Assembly (NCBI GenBank): GCA_963781475.1
Contig: CAWAGJ010000006.1
Span: 5,580 to 69,579, forward strand
DNA from: an uncultured Actinomycetota bacterium
GTDB lineage: Bacteria > Actinomycetota > Actinomycetes > Propionibacteriales > Nocardioidaceae
DNA: 64,000 nucleotides
Reading direction: 5' to 3'
The stretch's first letter is position 1, and every line of letters starts with the position of its first letter. Made by a program: the position numbers and the translations under genes. The notes under the pieces are model-generated. The model made no database searches and had not been told where the DNA came from. It saw only the letters and a list, made by a program, of their open reading frames with translations. Positions 1 through 48,122 of the stretch are shown here, in pieces.

Positions 1-1
1 G

Positions 2-343
2 GAATTCCAGCAGAACTTCATCCGGCTGCTGTTCGGCCTGATGGACCCCAACGCACTGCTCACGATGGGCTGGAAGTGGCAGCGCGGCGACGTGGCCCAC
101 AACACCGGCGGCGACCTCGCCGCGGCCCTGGGTCGGATCACAGCGAAAGTATTCGTGATGCCGATCGAGCAAGACATGTTCTTCCCGCCCCGCGACTGCC
201 AACCGGAGCAGGAACTCACTCCCGGGAGCGAGTTGCGCGTTCTACACAGCATCGCCGGGCACTTCGGTCTTTTCGGATTCGAGCAGTCCTACCTCGACGA
301 GGTCGACGGGCATCTGAAGGAACTGCTCACCACCGAGGCCTGA
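2..343 (+). CDS. alpha/beta-fold hydrolase, MetX (homoserine O-acetyltransferase)-like; C-terminal fragment, 5' end outside window
   Basis: Frame is open from nt 2 (EFQQNFIRLLFGL precedes listed ORF 41..343). The tail ...MPIEQDMFFPPRD...LHSIAGHFGLFG resembles the catalytic-His region of MetX-type hydrolases. TGA at 341-343. Confidence 0.6.
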   Translation, partial: EFQQNFIRLLFGLMDPNALLTMGWKWQRGDVAHNTGGDLAAALGRITAKVFVMPIEQDMFFPPRDCQPEQELTPGSELRVLHSIAGHFGLFGFEQSYLDEVDGHLKELLTTEA

Positions 344-2744: not shown

Positions 2745-3532
2745 GGAGCCGCCCGGTCGGTGCGCCCGTCGCGGTCGACGGCGTCGTCGAGCAGGCGGCG
2801 CCACGAGCGGACGTACCCCGCGTCGACGTAGGAGCGGTAGCTGGCGCCCGGGCGGACCTGGGTGCCCACGTGGAGCTGCCGCACGCCCGCGCGGGCGAGC
2901 CACGGGACGTGCTCGGCGGCCAGACCCCCGGCGGGCATCAGCAGCCGCGCCACCTCCGGCGAGCGGCGGGCCAGGGCCAGCAGGTCCTCGTAGCCCTGGG
3001 CCAAGCCCTGCGGCGACCCGGCGGAGCGCACCGAGGTGACCCCGGGCAGGTCGACCACGCGGCCCCAGGAGCGCACGGGGTCGAGGGTGTCGTCGAGGGC
3101 GCGGTGGAAGGTCCACGGCGTCCCCGGGACCGCCGACAGCAGCGTGCGGCAGGCCGGCACGTCGACCTCCAGGTCGGCGTCGAGGAAGCCGAGCACGACG
3201 CCCTCGGCGCCCAGCGCGACGTACTCCCGGGCGAGGTCGGCGAGGCGGTCCAGGGAGGACGCGTCGGCGGCGTACGGTGCCGCGCCGTCGGCCGGTGGCA
3301 GCCGGAGCAGGGCGCGCACCGGGAGCCCGCTGGACCGGGCGACGGACGAGACCAGGGCCGGCTCGGGCGCGGTGGCGTACGACGCCCCCGGCGCGACCAC
3401 CGCGAGCCGGTCCGCACCGCCCTCGACGCACCCCGGCACGTCGCGCGGGTGGGTGACCGCCACCTCGAGCAGGCCGCGCGCCTGCTGCGTCCCGGCGGGG
3501 TCGCGGGGCCCCCCGGCCGTGGCGTCGCTCAT
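2741..3532 (-). CDS. cutC: copper homeostasis protein CutC family
   Basis: ORF 2741..3712 with an internal ATG at 3532 (MSDATAGG...). LLEVAV....D...C.EGGADR..VV and later GV..LHVG are CutC TIM-barrel-like. The region upstream of M61 is Arg/Ala-rich junk. Confidence 0.8.
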   Translation of the reverse strand: MSDATAGGPRDPAGTQQARGLLEVAVTHPRDVPGCVEGGADRLAVVAPGASYATAPEPALVSSVARSSGLPVRALLRLPPADGAAPYAADASSLDRLADLAREYVALGAEGVVLGFLDADLEVDVPACRTLLSAVPGTPWTFHRALDDTLDPVRSWGRVVDLPGVTSVRSAGSPQGLAQGYEDLLALARRSPEVARLLMPAGGLAAEHVPWLARAGVRQLHVGTQVRPGASYRSYVDAGYVRSWRRLLDDAVDRDGRTDRAAP

Positions 3533-3596
3533 CGGGCCAGGGTAGACGGCGCGGCCGGCGGGGCGGCCGGTTTGCCCGGTCGCGCAGACTTGTCCC

Positions 3597-3953
3597 ATGG
3601 ACGTCGCCCTCATCCTCGCCGCCCGCGCGCGCGTCCTCGCCGACCTCGAGGCCCGTCGCGAGGCCAGCCCCGGCGCCGTGTCGGCGCTCGAGGAGGCGTG
3701 CTCGTCACGCACCTGGTGGGCCGAGCAGTGGCCGGCCGGCGAGGTGTACGTCGCCGGGCTCGTCGCGCAGGACGTCCAGGACGCGCTGGTCGAGGCGGGC
3801 GACCGGTGGCCGCTCTGCCTGGGCTGCGAGGACCTCCCGCAGCACGCGCTCTACATCCAGCCCGACCTCGGCGGGCCCGACCCGCACTGGGTCTGCGAGG
3901 AGAGCGCGACCGTCGCGGCCCCGCTCGGCGCCCTGGCCTCCTGGCGAGGCTGA
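3597..3953 (+). CDS. hypothetical protein
   Basis: ORF 3597..3953 with GC3-rich codon usage and balanced composition (WPLCLGCEDLPQHALYIQPD...). No family recognised. Confidence 0.6.
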   Translation: MDVALILAARARVLADLEARREASPGAVSALEEACSSRTWWAEQWPAGEVYVAGLVAQDVQDALVEAGDRWPLCLGCEDLPQHALYIQPDLGGPDPHWVCEESATVAAPLGALASWRG

Positions 3954-3960
3954 GCCCCAC

Positions 3961-4074
3961 CGCGAGCGTCACCTCGGGGCGTCGCCAGCGTCATCTCGGC
4001 CCATTTTCAGCGTCATCTCGGCGGGGTGCCGCCGTCATCTGGGCCGGGCGGGAGTGTCACCTCGGCAGGGCGGG
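3961..4074 (+). repeat. 22-bp phased tandem repeat array A (5 units, GTCAYCTSGG orientation)
   Basis: Cores start at 3968, 3990, 4012, 4034 and 4056, exactly 22 bp apart. The array fills the whole gap between convergent genes ending at 3953 and 4075. Confidence 0.9.
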
Positions 4075-4797
4075 TCAGCCGCAGATCTGGAGCCAGAGGG
4101 TGAAGCGGTCCGCGCGGTAGACGCTGCGGGAGACCTCGACGACCTTCTCGTCGGCCACGGCGCGGCGCGAGTGGCGCAGCACCACCGAGCCGGGCTCGAC
4201 CTCGAGCAGGCCCGCCTCCTCGACGCCGGCGACGTCGGCGGTGATCGAGTCCTCCGCCCAGGTCGGGCGCAGGCCGCGGGTGCCGAGGTCGGCGTACAGG
4301 CTGGTGGGCATGCCGCGCTGCAGGAAGCCGGGCAGCAGGATCTCGGTGAGGTAGGCGTCCTCGATGCAGACCGCGGTGCCGTCGCCGCGGCGCAGGCGGC
4401 GCCAGTGGATGACCGGGTCGCCCTCGGTCAGGCTCAGCGCCCGGGCGACACCGGGGCCGGCCTGCTCGCGGCGCGCCAGCAGCGTCTGCGACTCGGCGAG
4501 GACGCCGCGGCGGCGCAGGTCCTCGGTGAACCCGGTGATCCGGCCACGGTTGCGCTGGGGACGGGCCACGAAGGTGCCCCGCCCGGGGATCCGCTCGAGG
4601 ATGCCCTCGGTGACCAGCGTGTCCAGGGCCTGCCGCACGGTCATCCGGGCCACGCCGAACATCGCGACCAGCTCGCGCTCGGAGGGGGCGGCCGCGCCGG
4701 GGGCCGCACCGGCCACGAGGTCGCGGACGTACTCCCGCACCTGGACGTGCTTCAGGGCCCGGCCGTCGGAGCGGTGCTCGGTGGTGGTCTCGGTCAC
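4075..4797 (-). CDS. GntR-family transcriptional regulator, HutC subfamily (wHTH + UTRA)
   Basis: ORF 4075..4797. SERELVAMFGVARMTVRQALDTLVTEGILERIPGRGTFV is a GntR HTH. The C-terminal part is UTRA-like. Confidence 0.9.
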   Translation of the reverse strand: MTETTTEHRSDGRALKHVQVREYVRDLVAGAAPGAAAPSERELVAMFGVARMTVRQALDTLVTEGILERIPGRGTFVARPQRNRGRITGFTEDLRRRGVLAESQTLLARREQAGPGVARALSLTEGDPVIHWRRLRRGDGTAVCIEDAYLTEILLPGFLQRGMPTSLYADLGTRGLRPTWAEDSITADVAGVEEAGLLEVEPGSVVLRHSRRAVADEKVVEVSRSVYRADRFTLWLQICG

Positions 4798-4985
4798 GGG
4801 CGTCAGCCTAGGCGGCAGCGGGCCCTCCCGTCATCAGAACCCGACAACCCGGCCACGGCTCGACGCAGGAGTACGCCGCGCAGCGTCGTCGCAGGTCAGA
4901 CGGGTCGCCGCACCAGCCGCCGGGGGCCTCGCGGTCTCGTCGGCCAGAACACCGGTCCGCGCGCCCGCACCGACGCCGGACCGGG

Positions 4986-7541
4986 TCACTCGGTGCCGAT
5001 CGCCGCGAGCACGTCGAGCCGGGCCGCGCGGCGGGCCGGCAGGACCGCGGCGAGCATCCCGACCACCACCGACAGCGCGAGGAACAGCCCGAGCTGGCCC
5101 AGCGGCACGCTGATCACCTCCAGGCCCTCCTCGCGCAGCGCGTACATCAGCGCGACGCCGAACACGACGCCGAGCACCGTCCCGAGCACGGCGCCCAGCA
5201 CGGAGATGACCACCGACTCCAGCGTGACCATCCAGCGCAGCTGCACCCGGGTCACCCCGATGGCGCGCAGCAGGCCGATCTCGCGGGTGCGCTCGAGCAC
5301 CGACAGCGCCAGGGTGTTCACGATGCCGAGCACCGCGATCAGGAGCGCCAGGCCGAGCAGGGCGAAGACCAGCAGCACGAACTGGTCGACCGGCTCGCGC
5401 TGCTCGGCGGCGAACGCGGCCTGGTCCTTGACCGTCACGACGGGCTGGTCGGCCACCACGGCCTCGAGCCCGGCCTGCACGGCCTCGCGTCCCTCGGCGT
5501 CCAGCCGGTCGTCGGCGTCCACCACCACCAGGTTGTCCTGGGGCGCGACCCCGGCGGCGTCCAGGGTCGCCACCGAGGTCAGCACCGGGAAGAACACCAC
5601 CGGGTTGGCCGCGAACAGACCCACGACCCGCCACGACCGCTCCCCGGCCGGCAGCGCCGCCACCAGCCGGTCGCCGACGGCGAGGCCCTCGTCGGCGGCG
5701 AAGTCCTGCTCCAGCAGCACGCTGCCGCGCTCGAGGTCGCCGGCGTCGCCGTCCACCACGTCGAGCTCCAGGGTGCCGAGGCTGCCGGGGTCGGTGCCGA
5801 CGACGCCCTGGGTGCCGGCGCCGTCGATCACGGCGCGGGCCGCCCGCTGCCGCACGACCGAGGCGACGCCGTCGACCCGGACCATCTCGTCGGCCACCGT
5901 CGGGGAGAAGGCGCCCGCGACGACGTTGCCCACGACGAAGTCCCCGACGAAGCCCTCCTCCACCGCCCGGTCCACCGAGGCCTTCGCGGAGTCGCCGATG
6001 ATCGCCATCGTGCAGGCCAGGGTCAGCCCGATCATCAGCGCCGAGGCGGTGGCCGTCGTGCGCCGCGGGTTGCGCAACGAGTTCTGCCCGGCCAGGGCGC
6101 CGATGCTGCCGAAGGCCCGGGCGTAGCCGACCCGCGCGAGCACGAGCAGCGGGCGGCTCAGGACCGGGCTCGCCGCGGCCACCCCGAGCAGGACCAGCAG
6201 GACCCCGGCCCCGACCCACCAGCCCGCCCGGGGCACCGACGCGAACAGCCCCGCGACCAGCACGCCGGCGCCGACGGCGGCCAGCGCCAGCCCCCCGAGG
6301 AAGCGGGTGCGCAGGGAGCCCTCGGGCAGCGCCACGTCGTCGCCCAGCGCCTGGACCGGGACGATCCGCGCGGTGCGCAGGGCCGGGAGCAGGGCGGCGA
6401 GGAGCGTGACGACGACGCCCACCCCGTACGCCGCCAGGACCGTGCGGGGGGCGAGCACCAGCCCCTGGCCGGCCAGGTCCAGCCCGACGCGGGCGAAGAC
6501 GGCGCGGATCCCGCGCGCCAGGAGCACCCCCAGCCCCAGGCCGAGCGTCGACCCGAGGAGGCCGACGAGGAGCGCCTCGAGCAGCACCGAGGCGGTGACC
6601 TGGCGCTGGGAGGCGCCGAGCGCACGCAGCAGGGCCAGCTCGCGGCTGCGCTGGGCGACCAGGATGGAGAAGGTGTTGACGATCAGGAACGCCCCGACCA
6701 CCAGCGCGATGCCGGCGAAGATCAGCAGGAAGGTGGTCAGGAACGACACCGCCTCCAGCAGCCCGCTGGCGGCCTGGTCCGCGGCCCGCTCCCCCGTGAC
6801 GGCCTCGACGCCGGCGGGCAGCACCTCCTCGGCCTGCGCGACGAGCTCCTCCTGCGAGGTGCCGTCGGCGGCGGTGACCCACACGTCGGTGAAGGCGTCC
6901 TCGCCCCGCAGGAAGAGGTCCTGGGCCACGGGGGTGGAGAAGGAGGCCAGCGTGGCGCCGTTGAGGGAGCCGCCGCCCGGGAAGCCGGACAGCCCGACCA
7001 GCTCGGCCTCCAGCCGCGGGGTGGCGGTGGCGGTGAGGAGCGGCACGGCGTCGCCCACGGCGTACCCGGCCTGCTCGGCGGTGCGCGCGTCGAGGACCAC
7101 CTCGCCCTCCGCGGCCGGCGCGCGCCCCTCGACGATGCTGAGCCCCTGGAGCCCGCCCGCGGCGGGCGCGTCGCTGAAGCTCTCGCCGAGCGCCGGCGGA
7201 CCCACGCCGCCCACGACCTTGCCGTCGGTCCCGACGACGTAGACCCCGACGGCCCCGACGTTGCCGTCGGCGCGGGCGGCCCCGGGCAGGGCGGCCAGCT
7301 CGTCGACGAGTCCGGCCGGCACGGTCACCGTGCCCGGCCCGCCCTCCGCCGCCCCGGCCCCGGCCGGTCGGACCACGACGTCGCCGACGGTCGCGTCGAA
7401 CAGCGCGGTGAAGCTGCGGTCGAGGGTGTCGGAGAAGACCAGCGAGCCGACGACGAAGGCGACCCCGAGGACCACCGCGAACGTGCTCATCAGCAGGCGG
7501 ACCTTGCGCCCGAGCAGGCTCTTCAGGCTGGCGACCAGCAC
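4986..7541 (-). CDS. ABC transporter permease, FtsX/MacB-like with two FtsX domains
   Basis: ORF 4986..7541 (851 aa). N-terminal TM, large extracytoplasmic domains and two 4-TM FtsX-type blocks (...LRALGASQRQV..., ...LRAIGVTRVQL...). Confidence 0.9.
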   Translation of the reverse strand: MLVASLKSLLGRKVRLLMSTFAVVLGVAFVVGSLVFSDTLDRSFTALFDATVGDVVVRPAGAGAAEGGPGTVTVPAGLVDELAALPGAARADGNVGAVGVYVVGTDGKVVGGVGPPALGESFSDAPAAGGLQGLSIVEGRAPAAEGEVVLDARTAEQAGYAVGDAVPLLTATATPRLEAELVGLSGFPGGGSLNGATLASFSTPVAQDLFLRGEDAFTDVWVTAADGTSQEELVAQAEEVLPAGVEAVTGERAADQAASGLLEAVSFLTTFLLIFAGIALVVGAFLIVNTFSILVAQRSRELALLRALGASQRQVTASVLLEALLVGLLGSTLGLGLGVLLARGIRAVFARVGLDLAGQGLVLAPRTVLAAYGVGVVVTLLAALLPALRTARIVPVQALGDDVALPEGSLRTRFLGGLALAAVGAGVLVAGLFASVPRAGWWVGAGVLLVLLGVAAASPVLSRPLLVLARVGYARAFGSIGALAGQNSLRNPRRTTATASALMIGLTLACTMAIIGDSAKASVDRAVEEGFVGDFVVGNVVAGAFSPTVADEMVRVDGVASVVRQRAARAVIDGAGTQGVVGTDPGSLGTLELDVVDGDAGDLERGSVLLEQDFAADEGLAVGDRLVAALPAGERSWRVVGLFAANPVVFFPVLTSVATLDAAGVAPQDNLVVVDADDRLDAEGREAVQAGLEAVVADQPVVTVKDQAAFAAEQREPVDQFVLLVFALLGLALLIAVLGIVNTLALSVLERTREIGLLRAIGVTRVQLRWMVTLESVVISVLGAVLGTVLGVVFGVALMYALREEGLEVISVPLGQLGLFLALSVVVGMLAAVLPARRAARLDVLAAIGTE

Positions 7542-42412: not shown

Positions 42413-44053
<1,641 letters not shown>

Positions 44054-44166: not shown

Positions 44167-44193
44167 TTGTCACTCTCATGGTAAGAGTGCCAG
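44167..44193. promoter_or_regulatory. CIRCE-like HrcA operator (distal, degenerate)
   Basis: TTGTCACTC-tcatggtaa-GAGTGCCAG, compared with the consensus TTAGCACTC-N9-GAGTGCTAA. Confidence 0.6.
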
Positions 44194-44201
44194 CGAAATG
44201 T

Positions 44202-44228
44202 CTAGCACTCGGCCCCGTCGAGTGCAAA
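44202..44228. promoter_or_regulatory. CIRCE HrcA operator (proximal in sequence to the upstream gene end)
   Basis: CTAGCACTC-ggccccgtc-GAGTGCAAA. Overlaps the last codons and the TAG stop of the ATP-grasp gene. Confidence 0.8.
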
Positions 44229-45134
44229 CGACCCGCGGGCCCGCGCCGGTCTGCGGGCCAGCGCGCGCACCACCGTGGAGGCGAACGCCGTGGCGTTGCC
44301 GGGCACCAGGTCGAGGTACAGCCCGGGCTCGATCACCTCGACCTCGCTGACGCACAGCGTGCCCTCGACCTCGAGCAGGTCCACCCGCCCGTACGGGAGT
44401 GGCCCGCCGTGGCGCTCCCCCACGACCGCCAGGGCGCGCTCGGCCAGCTCGACCGCGGCCGGGTCCGGATCGACCGGCCGCATCACGCCGCCGTAGCGCG
44501 GGTGCACCCGCACCTCGTCGTCCTCGCCCGCGGCGACCTTGTCGACCTGTGACACGACCCGGCCGTCCAGCACGAACAGCGAGCGCTCCCCGCTGGTGCG
44601 CACCGAGGCCACCAGCGGCTGCAGCAGCCAGGCCTCGCCGCCGAGCGCGGAGAGCCGCGGGTCGTCGGGCCGCGACGCCACCACGACACCGGCGCCGCCG
44701 GCCCCCGTACGGGGCTTGAGCACGACCTCGCCGTAGCGCGCGAGGCCGGTCCTCAGCGCCGCGACCAGGTCGGTCGCCTCCACGAGGACGGTGGGCACGA
44801 CCGGCAGGTCCTCGGCCAGGTCGAGCAGGTAGGACTTGTCGGCGTTCCAGGCCATCACCGCGGCGCCGCCCCACAGGTGCCCGCCGGCCTCGACCCGGCG
44901 GGTCCAGGCGAGGAACGCCGGCAGCCGGCGGTGGTAGTCCCAGGTCGAGCGCACCGCCACGAGGTCCGCCGCGTGCCAGGCGACCTGCGGATCGCTCCAG
45001 ACCGCCCAGGAGGCGTCGACCCCGGCGTCCTCCAGGGCCTCGAGCAGCAGGTGTCCGCCGGCCTCTCCCCCGGGCAGGAGGTCGAAGGTGGCCAGCAGGA
45101 CGGTCGGCCTCGTGCTCGCGCCGCCCGTCCTCAC
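44202..45134 (-). CDS. ATP-grasp domain protein (RimK/glutathione-synthetase-like)
   Basis: ORF 44202..45134 with GTG start. Pre-ATP-grasp N-domain, then ...GEVVLKPRTGAGGAGV..., ...LLQPLV..., ...GRVDLLEVEG.L.VSEVEVIEPGL. Confidence 0.8.
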   Translation of the reverse strand: MRTGGASTRPTVLLATFDLLPGGEAGGHLLLEALEDAGVDASWAVWSDPQVAWHAADLVAVRSTWDYHRRLPAFLAWTRRVEAGGHLWGGAAVMAWNADKSYLLDLAEDLPVVPTVLVEATDLVAALRTGLARYGEVVLKPRTGAGGAGVVVASRPDDPRLSALGGEAWLLQPLVASVRTSGERSLFVLDGRVVSQVDKVAAGEDDEVRVHPRYGGVMRPVDPDPAAVELAERALAVVGERHGGPLPYGRVDLLEVEGTLCVSEVEVIEPGLYLDLVPGNATAFASTVVRALARRPARARGSFALDGAEC

Positions 45135-45181
45135 CGTCCGTCGTCGCGCTGCGCGGTGCGCGAGCAGGTCCGCCCCACCAC

Positions 45182-45457
45182 TCAGCCGCCCGCGACCGCG
45201 GGGATGACCGAGACCTGGACGCCGTCGGGCGTCGGGGTCGCCAGGTCCTCGAGGAAGCGCACGTCCTCGTTGCCGACGTAGACGTTCACGAAGCGGCGCA
45301 GCGTGCCGTTGTCGTCGAGGATCCGCGCGCGGATCCCGGCGTACGACGCCTCGAGGTCGTCGAGCACCTCGGCCAGGGTGGACCCCTCGGCGCTGACCTC
45401 GGAGTCACCCCCGGTGTAGCTGCGCAGGATGGTGGGGACGCGGACGGACACGCTCAC
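45182..45457 (-). CDS. MoaD/ThiS-family ubiquitin-like sulfur carrier (CysO/MetO-like)
   Basis: ORF 45182..45457 (91 aa). The beta-grasp pattern ends in ...VSVIPAVAGG (C-terminal Gly-Gly). Confidence 0.9.
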   Translation of the reverse strand: MSVSVRVPTILRSYTGGDSEVSAEGSTLAEVLDDLEASYAGIRARILDDNGTLRRFVNVYVGNEDVRFLEDLATPTPDGVQVSVIPAVAGG

Positions 45458-45528
45458 GGGTGCTGGTCTCCTCGTGGGTCGGGGATACGGGCGGGTCGGG
45501 GGTACGGCGGGCCGGCGGTGCGGCCGGC

Positions 45529-46830
45529 TCAGGCGATGCCGGTGGCGACGAACGCGGCGTACGACGGGGCGATCGTGGCGGCCGGACCGACGTGGTCGGC
45601 GACCGCGTCGAGGGTCTTCAGACCCATCCCGGTGTTGATCACCACGGTCTCGGCGTCGGGGTCCAGCTGGCCGGTCTCGACCAGCTTCTTCAGCACGCCG
45701 ACCGTGGTGCCGCCGGCGGTCTCGGTGAAGATGCCCTCGGTGCGCGCCAGCAGCAGGATGCCCTGGCGCACCTCGTCGTCGGTGATGTCCTCGACCGCGC
45801 CGCCGGTGGAGCGGCAGACGTCGAGGACGTAGATGCCGTCAGCAGGGTTGCCGATGGCCAGGCTCTTGGCGATGGTGTCCGGCTTGACCGGGCGGATCGC
45901 GTCGACGCCGTCCTTGAAGGCGACCGAGACCGGCGAGCAGCCGGTGGCCTGGGCGCCGAAGATCTTCACCGGCTTGTCCTCGACCAGGCCGAGGCGGACC
46001 AGCTCGCCGAAGGCCTTGTGCACCTTGGTCAGCTGGGAGCCGGACGCGACCGGGATGACGACCTGGTCGGGCAGCCGCCAGCCGAGCTGCTCGGCGATCT
46101 CGTAGCCCAGGGTCTTGGAGCCCTCGGCGTAGAACGGGCGGACGTTGACGTTCACGAACGCCCAGCCGTCCTCCTCGCCGGCGATCTCGGAGGCGAGCTT
46201 GTTGACGTCGTCGTAGTTGCCGTCGACGGCGACCAGCTGCTCGGTGTAGACCGCCGAGTTGACCTGCTTGGGCTTCTCGAGGTTGCTGGGGATGAAGACC
46301 ACGGTCTTGATCCCGGCCCGGGCGCCGGCGGCGGCCACGGCGTTGGCCAGGTTGCCGGTCGAGGGGCAGGCGAAGACCTTGGCCTTGAACTCGGTCGCGG
46401 CGCTCAGCGCGCAGGCCACGACGCGGTCCTTGAAGGAGTTGGTGGGGTTGGTCGAGTCGTCCTTGACCCACAGGTTGCTCAGGCCGAGCTCGCGACCGAG
46501 GTTGCCGGCCCGGAGCAGCCGGGTGAAGCCGGGCTCCATGTTCGGGCTCTGCTCGATGTCGTCGGGCACCGGCAGCAGCGCCTTGTAGCGCCAGATGTTG
46601 CGCGGGCCGGCCTCGATCTCCTCGCGGGTCACGGCCGGGAAGTCGTAGGCCACCTCGAGGGGCCCGAAGCACTGCGGACACGCGTAGTGCGGGCCGAGCT
46701 CGACCTCGTGGCCGCACTCGCGACAGCTCAGTCCGGTGGCGTTGCCGAACGCGCGCTCGCGCAGTCCGGTCGTCCCACCGTTCGTGGCGGGGTCGGGGAC
46801 CCCGGTCTTCTCGGCAGTCAGGGCGCTCAT
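45529..46830 (-). CDS. threonine-synthase-family PLP enzyme with N-terminal zinc ribbon (ThrC/MetM-like)
   Basis: ATG at 46830, preceded by GAGGAGGAGG, in ORF 45529..46896. CRECGHEVELGPHYACPQCFG zinc ribbon. PLP-lysine motif NPTNSFKDR. GNLANA and IPVASGS. Confidence 0.92.
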   Translation of the reverse strand: MSALTAEKTGVPDPATNGGTTGLRERAFGNATGLSCRECGHEVELGPHYACPQCFGPLEVAYDFPAVTREEIEAGPRNIWRYKALLPVPDDIEQSPNMEPGFTRLLRAGNLGRELGLSNLWVKDDSTNPTNSFKDRVVACALSAATEFKAKVFACPSTGNLANAVAAAGARAGIKTVVFIPSNLEKPKQVNSAVYTEQLVAVDGNYDDVNKLASEIAGEEDGWAFVNVNVRPFYAEGSKTLGYEIAEQLGWRLPDQVVIPVASGSQLTKVHKAFGELVRLGLVEDKPVKIFGAQATGCSPVSVAFKDGVDAIRPVKPDTIAKSLAIGNPADGIYVLDVCRSTGGAVEDITDDEVRQGILLLARTEGIFTETAGGTTVGVLKKLVETGQLDPDAETVVINTGMGLKTLDAVADHVGPAATIAPSYAAFVATGIA

Positions 46831-46843
46831 GAGAAACCTCCTC

Positions 46844-46999
46844 CTCATCTTCCCCGGGCGGCTTTCGCACCGGGACGGAGTTAGCACCGTTTCCACGATC
46901 CGACTGCGCGCCGTCCGGGATCGGACGGTCCGCTGGGCGGAGGCTCGTGGCGGTTGCCGGGACTTCGACGGGCCGTTCCCTCAGTCCCTCTTGATGAGC
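46844..46999 (-). promoter_or_regulatory. SAM-I (S-box) riboswitch
   Basis: The minus strand reads GCTCATCAAGAGGGACTGAGGGAACGGCCCGTCGAAGTCCCGGCAACC...GGTGCTAACTCC...GAAGATGAGGAGG. This matches the conserved S-box blocks CUUAUCAAGAG..GAGGGA..GGCCC..GAA..CCGGCAACC, GGUGCUAAUUCC and AAGAUAAG. The 3' P1 strand GAUGAG abuts or overlaps the SD. Confidence 0.88.
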
Positions 47000-47118
47000 T
47001 GTGCTCGACAGTACAGGCCGTCGTCTCAGCATGCGTCACCCCGTACCACGATGCGGACGTGTAGCCCGGGGACTGTGCTGGCTCGCAGGGCACCCTCACC
47101 GCCGGCCGGGTGGCGTCG

Positions 47119-47273: not shown

Positions 47274-48122
47274 TCAGTCGCCCCGGAGGGGGCCGGCGTC
47301 CGCGGCGAGCCGGCGCAGCAGGTCGAGCACGCCGTCGGGCCCGTGCACCACGACGTCGGCGTGCGGCAGCAGGGCGCTCTCCTCGTCGGAGGCGGAGCAG
47401 ACCCGCAGCGTGCTCAGCCCGGCCCCGTCCAGCCGGCCGAGCGCCTCGAAGGCCTCCAGGTCGCCGAGGTCGTCGCCGGCGAAGGCGAACCCGCGGGGGT
47501 CGAGGTCCTCCACGAGCCGTTCGACGGCCTGGCCCTTGTGGGCGCCCGGGGTGCGCACCTCGATGACGTTGCGGCCCGGCTCGAGGGTCAGGTCGTGGGC
47601 CTGGGCCAGCTCGCGCAGCGCGGGCAGCAGCCGCTCGAAGGCCTCCTTGGCGTCCGGCAGCCGCCGGGTGTGCACGGCGACCGCGAGGCCCTTCTCCTCC
47701 ACCCACGCCTCGGCGGCGTCGTGGCGGCGCAGCACCGCGGGCAGGTCCCGCTCGAACGCGGCCAGGACCTCCGGCGGTCGCGGGGAGTCCACGTGCTCGG
47801 TCACCGAGCTCCAGTGCTCGTGGCCGTACTGGCCGAAGACGTGCAGCTCGGACCCCCGCTCGGCGAACCCCCGGCCGACCTCCTCGAGGCCGCCGAGGTC
47901 GAGCACCTGCCGCGCCGGACGGCCGGTGATCACCGCGACCGCCAGCACGTGCCCGGCCAGCCCCAGGAGCGCGTCGGCGGCGTCGGGGTGGATGCAGGCG
48001 GACTGCGGGTCCGCCACGATCGGGGCCAGCGTGCCGTCGAAGTCGAGGCCGACCACGACGTCGGGCAGGGCGCGCACGAGGCGGTCGTAGCGCTGCTCGC
48101 CGCGCTCGGTGGTGAACTCCAC
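47274..48122 (-). CDS. otsB: trehalose-6-phosphate phosphatase
   Basis: ORF 47274..48122 with GTG start. HAD motif I GLDFDGTLAP. KG (motif III) and GDDLGD (motif IV). Confidence 0.9.
   Translation of the reverse strand: MEFTTERGEQRYDRLVRALPDVVVGLDFDGTLAPIVADPQSACIHPDAADALLGLAGHVLAVAVITGRPARQVLDLGGLEEVGRGFAERGSELHVFGQYGHEHWSSVTEHVDSPRPPEVLAAFERDLPAVLRRHDAAEAWVEEKGLAVAVHTRRLPDAKEAFERLLPALRELAQAHDLTLEPGRNVIEVRTPGAHKGQAVERLVEDLDPRGFAFAGDDLGDLEAFEALGRLDGAGLSTLRVCSASDEESALLPHADVVVHGPDGVLDLLRRLAADAGPLRGD

What the first reader, a model, noticed from the sequence alone, without database searches (positions are those of the whole stretch)
44202..46999. SAM-I riboswitch controls a ThrC-like enzyme + MoaD-like sulfur carrier (+ ATP-grasp): protein-thiocarboxylate route to homocysteine?
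The leader at 46999-46844 (minus strand) contains all conserved S-box blocks. Its 3' P1 strand GAUGAG runs into the Shine-Dalgarno GAGGAGGAGG, which suggests translational control.

SAM control argues that this threonine-synthase paralogue acts in methionine rather than threonine synthesis. It has a zinc ribbon and an SFKDR PLP site. It would use the adjacent Gly-Gly sulfur carrier.

That matches the ThrC-like/MoaD-like (MetM/MetO-type) homocysteine pathway proposed for streptomycetes, and protein-thiocarboxylate sulfur transfer in general.

A co-directional ATP-grasp gene follows after 47 nt. It has no assigned role in such pathways. No E1-like adenylyltransferase or JAMM protease is nearby.
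Basis: partly seen in the sequence, partly recalled or inferred. Interest (0 to 1): 0.65.

Follow-up and report, generated by a model that had tools for sequence, protein, structure and literature searches.

The report
SAM-controlled MetM/MetO homocysteine operon
This Nocardioides locus is an ordinary copy of the already published SAM-riboswitch-controlled MetM/MetO route to the methionine precursor homocysteine, and the ATP-grasp gene behind it is an unrelated neighbour brought next to it by a recent deletion.

Summary
A SAM-I riboswitch (RF00162, 64.2 bits against a cut-off of 44.4) lies at 47000-46842 on the minus strand. Its 3' P1 strand runs straight into the ribosome-binding site of a ThrC paralogue, which is followed by a GG-ended ThiS/MoaD carrier and, 47 nt later, an ATP-grasp gene.

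The riboswitch-metM-metO reading is supported, but it is already known: Hasebe et al. 2024 described it in Streptomyces albulus and GapMind 2026 includes it. This scan has noted the same arrangement more than 200 times on other DNA.

- The genome also has the housekeeping hom-thrC-thrB operon, MoeZ, a mec-cysO-cysM cluster and MetH.
- It has no recognisable MetA, MetX or MetY.
- In a tree, the riboswitch-linked enzymes, including those of named Streptomyces, separate from ThrC with 100% support.

The ATP-grasp part is not supported. The gene is a DcsG-like ligase that sits in a variable island between metO and groEL. In 12 congeneric genomes it lies at least 1.3 kb from metO. It is absent from that locus in all 80 Streptomyces. 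The closest contig (91% nucleotide identity) has a GDSL hydrolase gene between metO and the ligase, and that gene is missing here.

Interest is low.

The parts
46842..47000 (-). SAM-I riboswitch aptamer (S-box). P3 carries a long insertion: 64 nt lie between the GCAAC and GGUGC landmarks.
   Evidence: RF00162 at 64.2 bits against gathering score 44.4, model 1-108. It is the only copy in the genome. The same element lies upstream of metM in 18 of 18 relatives' loci and in 5 of 5 Streptomyces loci tested.
46837..46849 (-). 3' strand of P1 (GAUGAG, 46849-46844) running directly into the Shine-Dalgarno GGAGGAGG (46844-46837). The ATG follows 6 nt later at 46830.
   Evidence: Read from the sequence. 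The motif AGAUGAG, then a purine-rich SD, then a start codon a few to about 18 nt further on, is conserved in all 49 leaders compared. No terminator-like site is present.
45529..46830 (-). metM: ThrC-fold, PLP-dependent homocysteine synthase that would use O-phosphohomoserine and MetO-thiocarboxylate. 433 aa, with an N-terminal 4-Cys zinc ribbon and the PLP lysine K134 in SFKDR.
   Evidence: PALP 228 bits, TIGR00260 262 bits. It is 32% identical to the genome's own ThrC. It falls in the MetM clade with 100% SH-aLRT support. The four Cys are invariant in 52 of 52 covered MetM-clade rows, and the region is absent from ThrC. It is 61-65% identical to MetM of 80 named Streptomyces.
45182..45457 (-). 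metO: ThiS/MoaD-type sulfur-carrier protein, 91 aa, ending in Gly-Gly directly before the stop codon. It has its own SD (GAGGAG) 9 nt before the GTG start.
   Evidence: PF02597 at 51.8 bits. Sequence. It is 64-73% identical to the gene after metM in 80 of 80 Streptomyces loci and 56% identical to the genome's own CysO.
45135..45181 (-). 47-nt spacer between metO and the ATP-grasp gene. It is the junction left where a segment of about 0.9 kb, carrying a GDSL-hydrolase gene, is missing relative to the closest relative.
   Evidence: blastn against contig L047 (91% identity): window 45699-45182 aligns to L047 32-543, and window 45132-43934 aligns to L047 1480-2684. L047 544-1479, which holds the GDSL gene at 646-1449, has no counterpart in the window. 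The spacer has no hairpin beyond chance (z = +1.5).
44202..45134 (-). DcsG-like ATP-grasp ligase (Pfam DcsG_N family PF27100), 310 aa from GTG 45134, substrate unknown. It is a neighbour, not a conserved member of the metM-metO operon.
   Evidence: NCBIfam DcsG model at 147 bits, below the 360 cut-off. PDB 6JIL (DcsG) E 2.7e-23. Homologues carry PF27100. The glycine-rich loop K140-G147 and the acidic residues D252, E264 and E266 are invariant. dN/dS against L047 is 0.32.
44167..44228 (-). Two CIRCE-like (HrcA operator) inverted repeats of the groEL promoter region. The ATP-grasp stop codon TAG (44204-44202) lies inside the first one. This marks the downstream boundary of the unit.
   Evidence: Sequence reads TTTGCACTC-N9-GAGTGCTAG and CTGGCACTC-N9-GAGTGACAA.
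42413..44038 (-). groEL (context). The synteny metM-metO ... groEL is ancient in the class.
   Evidence: 541-aa ORF. groEL lies downstream of metO in most Nocardioides loci and in 79 of 80 Streptomyces loci.
47274..48122 (-). otsB trehalose-phosphatase (context). It is the upstream neighbour of the riboswitch.
   Evidence: PF02358 at 92 bits, TIGR00685 at 104 bits. It is syntenic in most Nocardioides loci.

Best explanation
The locus is the Nocardioides orthologue of the published MetM/MetO pathway.

**Pathway.** Homoserine kinase (thrB, in the hom-thrC-thrB operon elsewhere in the genome) makes O-phosphohomoserine. MetM is a ThrC-fold PLP enzyme with an extra zinc ribbon. It replaces the phosphate with sulfur delivered as the C-terminal thiocarboxylate of MetO, which gives homocysteine. 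MetH then methylates homocysteine to methionine. MetO would be charged by the genome's MoeZ (E1 plus rhodanese). The JAMM protease Mec is encoded in a mec-cysO-cysM cluster.

**Regulation.** When SAM is abundant it binds the SAM-I aptamer and locks helix P1. The 3' strand of P1 abuts the ribosome-binding site, so formation of P1 denies the ribosome access and translation of metM is shut off. This is direct translation attenuation, with no terminator involved.

**The ATP-grasp gene.** It encodes a DcsG-like carboxylate ligase of unknown substrate. It belongs to a variable gene island between metO and groEL. It became the immediate neighbour of metO only in this lineage, when the GDSL-hydrolase gene in front of it was lost.

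**Shown and inferred.** Shown here: the sequence features, orthology, synteny, the missing GDSL segment and the genome's pathway complement. That the segment was lost rather than gained elsewhere is inferred by parsimony. Also inferred from the literature and by homology: the chemistry, the direction of regulation, and the absence of any role for the ligase in the pathway.
For: **Riboswitch.**
- It scores above threshold and is the only copy in the genome.
- It precedes metM in 18 of 18 relatives' loci.
- MetM lies immediately downstream in 29 of the 30 best SAM-I loci sampled across the class.
- It is present in 5 of 5 Streptomyces loci tested.
- The P1-SD-start layout is universal among 49 leaders. 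It matches the mechanism described for actinobacterial SAM-I riboswitches in PMC2258182.

**MetM and MetO.**
- MetM and ThrC form separate clades with 100% support.
- The zinc-ribbon cysteines are invariant in the MetM clade and absent from ThrC.
- metM-metO occurs in 80 of 80 named Streptomyces loci.
- The pathway and its upstream SAM riboswitch in S. albulus are reported by GapMind 2026 and PMC12172450, both citing Hasebe et al. 2024.

**Genome complement.**
- MoeZ scores 671 against a cut-off of 647.
- mec-cysO-cysM is present, as is hom-thrC-thrB and MetH at 1700 bits.
- No MetA was found and no MetE.
- No MetX or MetY scores above its cut-off.

**ATP-grasp not linked to the operon.**
- An orthologue is present in only 12 of 24 congeneric genomes. 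It lies 1.3 to about 17 kb from metO or metM, or on another contig.
- The genes in between differ from genome to genome: a TylF methyltransferase or a GDSL lipase.
- The nearest species representative, G008, has a permease there and no ligase.
- The Kribbella-like homologues lie megabases from metM.
- The closest contig has the order metO-GDSL-grasp-groEL.
- One assembly carries a GDSL-grasp fusion next to groEL with no metMO beside it.
Against:
- The S. albulus MetM sequence itself could not be fetched. Membership therefore rests on orthology to other Streptomyces sequences and on synteny.
- The primary paper was not held.
- No terminator or significant hairpin separates metO from the ATP-grasp gene. 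In this genome the ligase may therefore be read through from the riboswitch-controlled promoter.
- The ligase ORF is intact and under purifying selection (dN/dS 0.32).
- The assembly is 91% complete, so the absence of MetA, MetX and MetY is not proven.
- A MetM homologue in Microcystis was reported to act on threonine rather than to supply methionine.
Confidence: 0.85

Rival explanations
1. The ATP-grasp ligase is a working part of the sulfur-carrier pathway in this organism. For example, it could activate the C-terminal glycine of MetO as an acyl-phosphate, bypassing the E1. Alternatively it could ligate or cyclise homocysteine or an O-phosphohomoserine-derived intermediate.
For: - It is co-directional with metO, 47 nt downstream, with no terminator-like structure between them.
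- The ORF is intact, with conserved ATP-grasp motifs and dN/dS of 0.32.
- ATP-grasp chemistry does activate carboxylates (general knowledge).
Against: - The adjacency is unique to this genome. In 12 congeners the gene lies at least 1.3 kb from metO, behind unrelated genes.
- It is absent from the locus in the nearest species representative and in 80 of 80 Streptomyces.
- The contig with 91% nucleotide identity has a GDSL gene in between.
- A bona fide MoeZ is present in the genome.
- A GDSL-grasp fusion exists away from metMO.
Confidence: 0.04
2. The ligase has no role in the pathway, but the deletion has made it a passive passenger of the metM-metO transcript. Its expression would now be repressed by SAM in this lineage, a regulatory accident rather than a designed operon.
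For: - The deletion removed everything between the metO stop and the ligase start. That includes the hairpin-forming sequence found after metO in the relative.
- No promoter-like or terminator-like site was found in the 47-nt spacer.
- The start-codon context at 45134 is new and weak. The assembly's own gene call starts only at M94.
Against: - The riboswitch is inferred to act on translation of metM, so it would not necessarily lower downstream mRNA.
- The promoter scan uses an E. coli-type consensus, which is not informative for high-GC actinomycetes.
- No transcript data are available.
Confidence: 0.35
3. The ThrC-like gene is a second threonine synthase or a threonine-metabolising enzyme, as reported for the Microcystis homologue, and not a homocysteine synthase. 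The SAM riboswitch would then balance the threonine and methionine branches.
For: - It scores above the TIGR00260 thrC cut-off, 262 against 167 bits.
- The Microcystis homologue, 51.6% identical to S. albulus MetM, showed threonine-related activities.
Against: - A canonical hom-thrC-thrB operon exists in the genome.
- The gene is only 32% identical to that ThrC and sits in a separate clade at 100% support, with 33 clade-specific invariant positions and an extra zinc ribbon.
- It is always paired with a GG-ended sulfur carrier and a SAM riboswitch.
- The genome has no other recognisable homocysteine-forming route.
- The Microcystis gene lacks the riboswitch.
Confidence: 0.04

Closest known systems
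MetM/MetO O-phosphohomoserine route to homocysteine in Streptomyces albulus. Source: Hasebe, Adachi, Maruyama and Hamano 2024, Appl Environ Microbiol 90:e01247-24, as summarised in GapMind 2026 and PMC12172450.
   Same: - The gene order is the same: SAM riboswitch, ThrC-like metM, ThiS/MoaD-like metO.
- MoeZ and Mec are present in the genome but not at the locus.
- The window's MetM is 61-65% identical and its MetO 64-73% identical to the orthologues of 80 named Streptomyces species.
- The downstream groEL synteny is also the same.
   Different: - The genus is different (Nocardioides).
- P3 of the aptamer carries a long insertion.
- A DcsG-like ATP-grasp gene follows metO, which no Streptomyces locus shows.
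- A direct comparison with the S. albulus protein itself could not be made.
CysM/CysO/MoeZ/Mec cysteine pathway of Mycobacterium tuberculosis (protein-thiocarboxylate-dependent cysteine synthesis; my own knowledge of the literature).
   Same: - It uses the same logic: a ubiquitin-like GG carrier is thiocarboxylated by MoeZ and consumed by a fold-type-II PLP enzyme acting on an O-phospho amino acid.
- This genome carries its own mec-cysO-cysM cluster.
- The window's MetO is 56% identical to that CysO.
   Different: - The PLP enzyme here is ThrC-like, not CysM-like.
- The substrate is O-phosphohomoserine, not O-phosphoserine.
- The product is homocysteine.
- Regulation is by a SAM riboswitch.
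SAM-I riboswitches with direct translation attenuation (Barrick and Breaker 2007, PMC2258182).
   Same: - The ribosome-binding site merges with the 3' side of P1.
- There is no separate expression platform.
- The paper reports this design as most frequent in Actinobacteria.
   Different: Nothing essential differs. Here the best GGAGG lies 3-7 nt beyond the last canonical P1 pair rather than inside it.
DcsG, the D-cycloserine synthetase of Streptomyces lavendulae (PDB 6JIL).
   Same: - It has the ATP-grasp fold and the DcsG_N domain family PF27100.
- The sequence match is significant, E 2.7e-23.
   Different: - It scores 147 bits against the DcsG equivalog cut-off of 360.
- No dcs cluster genes were seen at the locus.
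- Where it has a recurring neighbour, that neighbour is a GDSL hydrolase, not cycloserine-pathway enzymes.

Membership tests
SAM-I riboswitch (RF00162) | Covariance-model score at or above the curated gathering score, over the full four-helix model | tested here: met
   64.2 bits against 44.4, model positions 1-108 of 108.
SAM-I riboswitch (RF00162) | Location in the 5' leader of a methionine or SAM metabolism gene, conserved across species | tested here: met
   It lies directly upstream of metM in 18 of 18 relatives' loci and in 5 of 5 Streptomyces loci tested. MetM lies downstream in 29 of the 30 best class-wide SAM-I loci.
SAM-I riboswitch (RF00162) | SAM binding and ligand-dependent switching | not testable with these tools
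   This needs in-line probing, ITC or a reporter assay.
MetM (MetO-thiocarboxylate-dependent homocysteine synthase) | ThrC-fold PLP enzyme with the catalytic lysine, distinct from the housekeeping ThrC of the same genome | tested here: met
   PALP 228 bits. K134 in SFKDR is invariant. The genome's own ThrC lies in hom-thrC-thrB and is 32% identical. The two clades split at 100% SH-aLRT.
MetM (MetO-thiocarboxylate-dependent homocysteine synthase) | Orthology to the Streptomyces enzyme | tested here: inconclusive
   It is 61-65% identical to, and in the same clade as, the riboswitch-linked enzyme of 80 named Streptomyces species. The S. albulus sequence itself was not available for comparison.
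MetM (MetO-thiocarboxylate-dependent homocysteine synthase) | Adjacent metO sulfur-carrier gene and an upstream SAM riboswitch, as reported for S. albulus | tested here: met
   metO starts 71 nt after the metM stop. Riboswitch.
MetM (MetO-thiocarboxylate-dependent homocysteine synthase) | Conversion of O-phosphohomoserine to homocysteine; rescue of methionine auxotrophy | not testable with these tools
   This needs an enzyme assay or genetics.
MetO (ThiS/MoaD-type sulfur carrier) | Beta-grasp ThiS/MoaD family match and a C-terminal Gly-Gly | tested here: met
   PF02597 at 51.8 bits against a cut-off of 22.5. The sequence ends AVAGG followed by the stop codon.
MetO (ThiS/MoaD-type sulfur carrier) | Activating E1/sulfurtransferase MoeZ and JAMM hydrolase Mec encoded in the genome | tested here: met
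   MoeZ NF005902 at 671 bits against a cut-off of 647. The JAB protein carries HSHTATEAYPSRTD and lies next to cysO.
DcsG (D-cycloserine synthetase) | Score at or above the NCBIfam equivalog cut-off | tested here: not met
   NF058666 at 147.1 bits against a cut-off of 360. It is a relative within the DcsG_N family, not DcsG itself.
ATP-grasp superfamily | Glycine-rich ATP loop and acidic Mg-binding residues conserved | tested here: met
   K140-P-R-T-G-A-G-G147, R250, D252, E264 and E266 are invariant in the alignment. PDB 6JIL E 2.7e-23.
metM-metO operon (ATP-grasp as a member) | Conserved adjacency or co-occurrence of the ATP-grasp gene with metO | tested here: not met
   Only this genome has the direct adjacency. 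Elsewhere the gap is at least 1.3 kb with unrelated genes in between, or the gene is absent from the locus. It was found in 0 of 80 Streptomyces loci.

The most novel reading that the evidence does not exclude
In this one Nocardioides lineage, the loss of the GDSL gene fused a DcsG-like ATP-grasp ligase onto the end of the SAM-riboswitch-controlled metM-metO unit. The ligase would then have been recruited to act on MetO, or on a homocysteine or O-phosphohomoserine-derived intermediate. One possibility is acyl-phosphate activation of the carrier's C-terminus, independent of the E1.
Probability: 0.04. Interest if true: 0.6.

Novelty: already known. Interest (0 to 1): 0.15.

Why it matters
The finding mainly has value for annotation.

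- The gene is a MetM-type homocysteine synthase, but models such as TIGR00260 still score it as threonine synthase.
- In this genome it is probably the only route to homocysteine, because no MetA, MetX or MetY was recognised.
- The survey adds context. Among the sampled actinomycete genomes, the single SAM-I riboswitch almost always sits on metM-metO. The metM-metO...groEL synteny reaches from Streptomyces to Nocardioides.
- The ATP-grasp result is a caution. Tight spacing in one genome can come from a recent deletion and need not indicate an operon partner.

Tried and rejected
1. **Anti-SD in the P3 apex.** A CCUCC sits at the same P3 position in 14 of 19 Propionibacteriales leaders. It is absent from most of 30 leaders sampled across the class, which have short P3 hairpins. 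The variants are not compensatory. I rejected it as a general mechanism.
2. **Local hairpin AUGAGGAG/UUUCUCAU over the start codon.** The minimum-free-energy fold predicts it. Only two of the leaders have that sequence, so it is not conserved.
3. **Extension of P1 into the SD by the 5' flank.** The flank shows no complementarity.
4. **Terminator or structured element between metO and the ligase.** None was found (z = +1.5).
5. **SAM-IV elsewhere in the genome.** No match.
6. **The ligase as DcsG proper.** It scores below the equivalog cut-off.
7. **A link between the ligase family and chaperone genes.** The genome's own paralogue lies upstream of dnaK, but this holds only here and in the nearest species.
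9. **The primary paper (PMC11497804).** It was not held, so I relied on two papers that summarise it.

Full report
**Observation**

On the minus strand the window carries, in order:
- otsB (48122-47274);
- a SAM-I riboswitch aptamer (47000-46842);
- a ThrC-like gene (46830-45529);
- a 91-codon ThiS/MoaD-like gene ending in Gly-Gly (45457-45182);
- an ATP-grasp gene (45134-44202);
- groEL (44038-42413).

The aptamer scores 64.2 bits against Rfam's gathering score of 44.4 over the whole model. It is the only SAM-I match in the 3.75-Mb, 91%-complete genome. No SAM-IV element was found.

The 3' strand of P1 (GAUGAG, 46849-46844) is followed at once by GGAGGAGG. Six bases further on is the ATG at 46830. 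Protein names of the nearest homologues identify the organism as a Nocardioides.

**What the first two genes are**

The genome has a second thrC in a canonical hom-thrC-thrB operon, so the riboswitch-linked gene is a paralogue. The two are 32% identical.

I built a maximum-likelihood tree from 53 riboswitch-linked enzymes and 30 housekeeping ThrCs. The first group came from Nocardioides, other Propionibacteriales, a class-wide sample and seven named Streptomyces species. The second came from the same class. The two groups fall on either side of one long branch with 100% SH-aLRT support. Four zinc-ribbon cysteines (C36, C39, C51, C54) are invariant in the first group, and the whole segment is absent from ThrC. 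The PLP lysine is shared by both, and 33 positions are fixed differently in the two groups.

The arrangement riboswitch-metM-metO was present in:
- all 18 relatives' loci I fetched;
- 29 of the 30 best SAM-I loci in a 151-genome sample of the class, judged by metM lying downstream; 119 of those genomes have the riboswitch, nearly always as a single copy;
- 80 of 80 named Streptomyces loci for metM-metO, with the riboswitch confirmed in 5 of 5 tested.

**Comparison with the literature**

This is the pathway described by Hasebe, Adachi, Maruyama and Hamano (2024) in Streptomyces albulus. According to GapMind 2026 and PMC12172450, MetM converts O-phosphohomoserine to homocysteine using MetO-thiocarboxylate. 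MoeZ and Mec are accessory steps, a SAM riboswitch lies upstream of metM, and MetM is often misannotated as threonine synthase. The primary paper was not held.

Earlier notes of this scan record the same operon in more than 200 other genomes, so this part is known.

**Genome complement**

- MoeZ passes its NCBIfam equivalog cut-off, 671 against 647 bits.
- A JAMM protein lies in a mec-cysO-cysM cluster.
- MetH is present.

No MetA or MetE was found. The two MetX-like proteins belong to the PRK07581 subfamily and fall far below the MetX cut-offs. None of the three Cys/Met-family PLP enzymes reaches an O-acetylhomoserine sulfhydrylase cut-off; the best of them is an MtbMetB-type cystathionine gamma-synthase. 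Subject to the 9% of the genome that is missing, MetM/MetO looks like the only route to homocysteine.

**How regulation most likely works**

P1 ends 13 nt before the start codon, and no terminator-like site exists. In all 49 leaders compared, the motif AGAUGAG is followed by a purine-rich Shine-Dalgarno sequence and a start codon a few to about 18 nt later. Barrick and Breaker (PMC2258182) describe this design for SAM-I: the ribosome-binding site merges with the 3' side of P1. They call it direct translation attenuation and report it as most frequent in Actinobacteria.

The inference is that SAM binding closes P1 and denies the 30S subunit its landing site. I looked for an additional masking partner:
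- A CCUCC at the P3 apex is common in Propionibacteriales but not class-wide.
- A start-codon hairpin is not conserved.

The switching step itself is untested.

**The ATP-grasp gene**

It is a DcsG-like ligase:
- it belongs to the PF27100 (DcsG_N) family;
- it matches PDB 6JIL at E 2.7e-23;
- it scores 147 bits against a cut-off of 360 for the DcsG equivalog;
- its ATP-grasp motifs are conserved.

Orthologues at 48-59% identity occur in 12 of 24 congeneric genomes. They always lie between metO and groEL where contigs allow, but 1.3 to about 17 kb from metO or metM. The genes in between vary and include a TylF-type methyltransferase and a GDSL hydrolase.

The nearest species representative, G008, is 93-94% identical in MetM and 97% in GroEL. 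It has an amino-acid permease there and no ligase. The Kribbella-like homologues are megabases away from metM. None of the 80 Streptomyces loci has the ligase.

The closest sequence available is a metagenomic contig 91% identical in DNA. It reads metO-GDSL hydrolase-ligase-groEL. Homology with the window is continuous on both sides, but the 936 bases that carry the GDSL gene are replaced by 49 bases in the window. Two further close contigs also have the GDSL gene directly upstream of the ligase. One assembly encodes a GDSL-ligase fusion next to groEL with no metMO beside it.

The junction also replaced the ligase's original start region. The orthologous GTG is GCG here, and the assembly's own gene call begins only at M94. 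The gene is still under purifying selection, with dN/dS of 0.32 against 0.19 for metO.

Nothing between metO and the ligase looks like a terminator, so passive read-through is possible.

**Verdict**

The riboswitch-MetM-MetO interpretation is correct but already published and widely conserved. The ATP-grasp link is not supported, and a lineage-specific deletion within a variable island explains it. Interest is low.

Noticed in passing
window 44167-44228 (minus strand): Two CIRCE-like HrcA operators lie upstream of groEL: TTTGCACTC-N9-GAGTGCTAG and CTGGCACTC-N9-GAGTGACAA. The ATP-grasp ORF's last codons and its TAG stop lie inside the first operator. The 12-residue C-terminal tail (..ARGSFALDGAEC) is shared with only one close homologue.
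   Followed up: partly
L024 (G008:C5) 3474-5057, immediately after metO: In the nearest species representative, an amino-acid permease gene (AA_permease_2, 188 bits) follows metO within 200 nt, in place of the GDSL and ATP-grasp genes. It is a candidate SAM-riboswitch-controlled transporter.
   Followed up: no
G000:C3:35567-36457 (L192 4586-5482, minus strand) and L193: A 40%-identical paralogue of the ATP-grasp ligase lies just upstream of dnaK, with a GrpB gene on the opposite strand between them. In this genome, therefore, both copies of the family sit next to chaperone genes. The dnaK adjacency recurs only in the nearest species (G008), not in five other genomes checked.
   Followed up: partly
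L191 1346-2845 (GCA_001628555.1 contig) and L016, L029, L047, L049, L050: A GDSL/SGNH hydrolase gene lies directly upstream of the DcsG-like ligase in several Nocardioides. In L016 the two overlap by about 10 nt. One assembly has them called as a single 499-aa fusion protein. This suggests an uncharacterised two-enzyme module.
   Followed up: partly
L008 (G017:C65) 1504-2340 and 3116-3814: Two diverged copies of the DcsG-like ligase (57% and 52% identical to the window's protein) lie about 0.8 kb apart on the same strand in one congeneric genome.
   Followed up: no
window 46939-46943 (minus strand), and the aligned position in 14 of 19 Propionibacteriales leaders: A CCUCC, complementary to the Shine-Dalgarno sequence, sits at the start of the apical part of helix P3 of the SAM-I aptamer. 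In the shortest leader (L018) it forms the P3 loop. P1 and P3 lie side by side in SAM-I structures, so a loop-SD contact is conceivable. The motif is not present class-wide, and no compensatory changes were seen.
   Followed up: partly
window 1-343 (plus strand; G000:C6:4780-5922) and G000:C1:425499-426059: Two MetX-like alpha/beta hydrolases belong to the NCBIfam PRK07581 'hypothetical protein' subfamily (477 and 541 bits). They score well below the MetX cut-offs, in a genome that otherwise lacks a homoserine acyltransferase. Their function is unknown.
   Followed up: no
class-wide sample: 119 of 151 sampled genomes of the class carry a SAM-I riboswitch, almost always exactly one. In 29 of the 30 best-scoring cases it sits on metM. 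In these genomes the SAM-I regulon seems to be essentially this one operon.
   Followed up: partly
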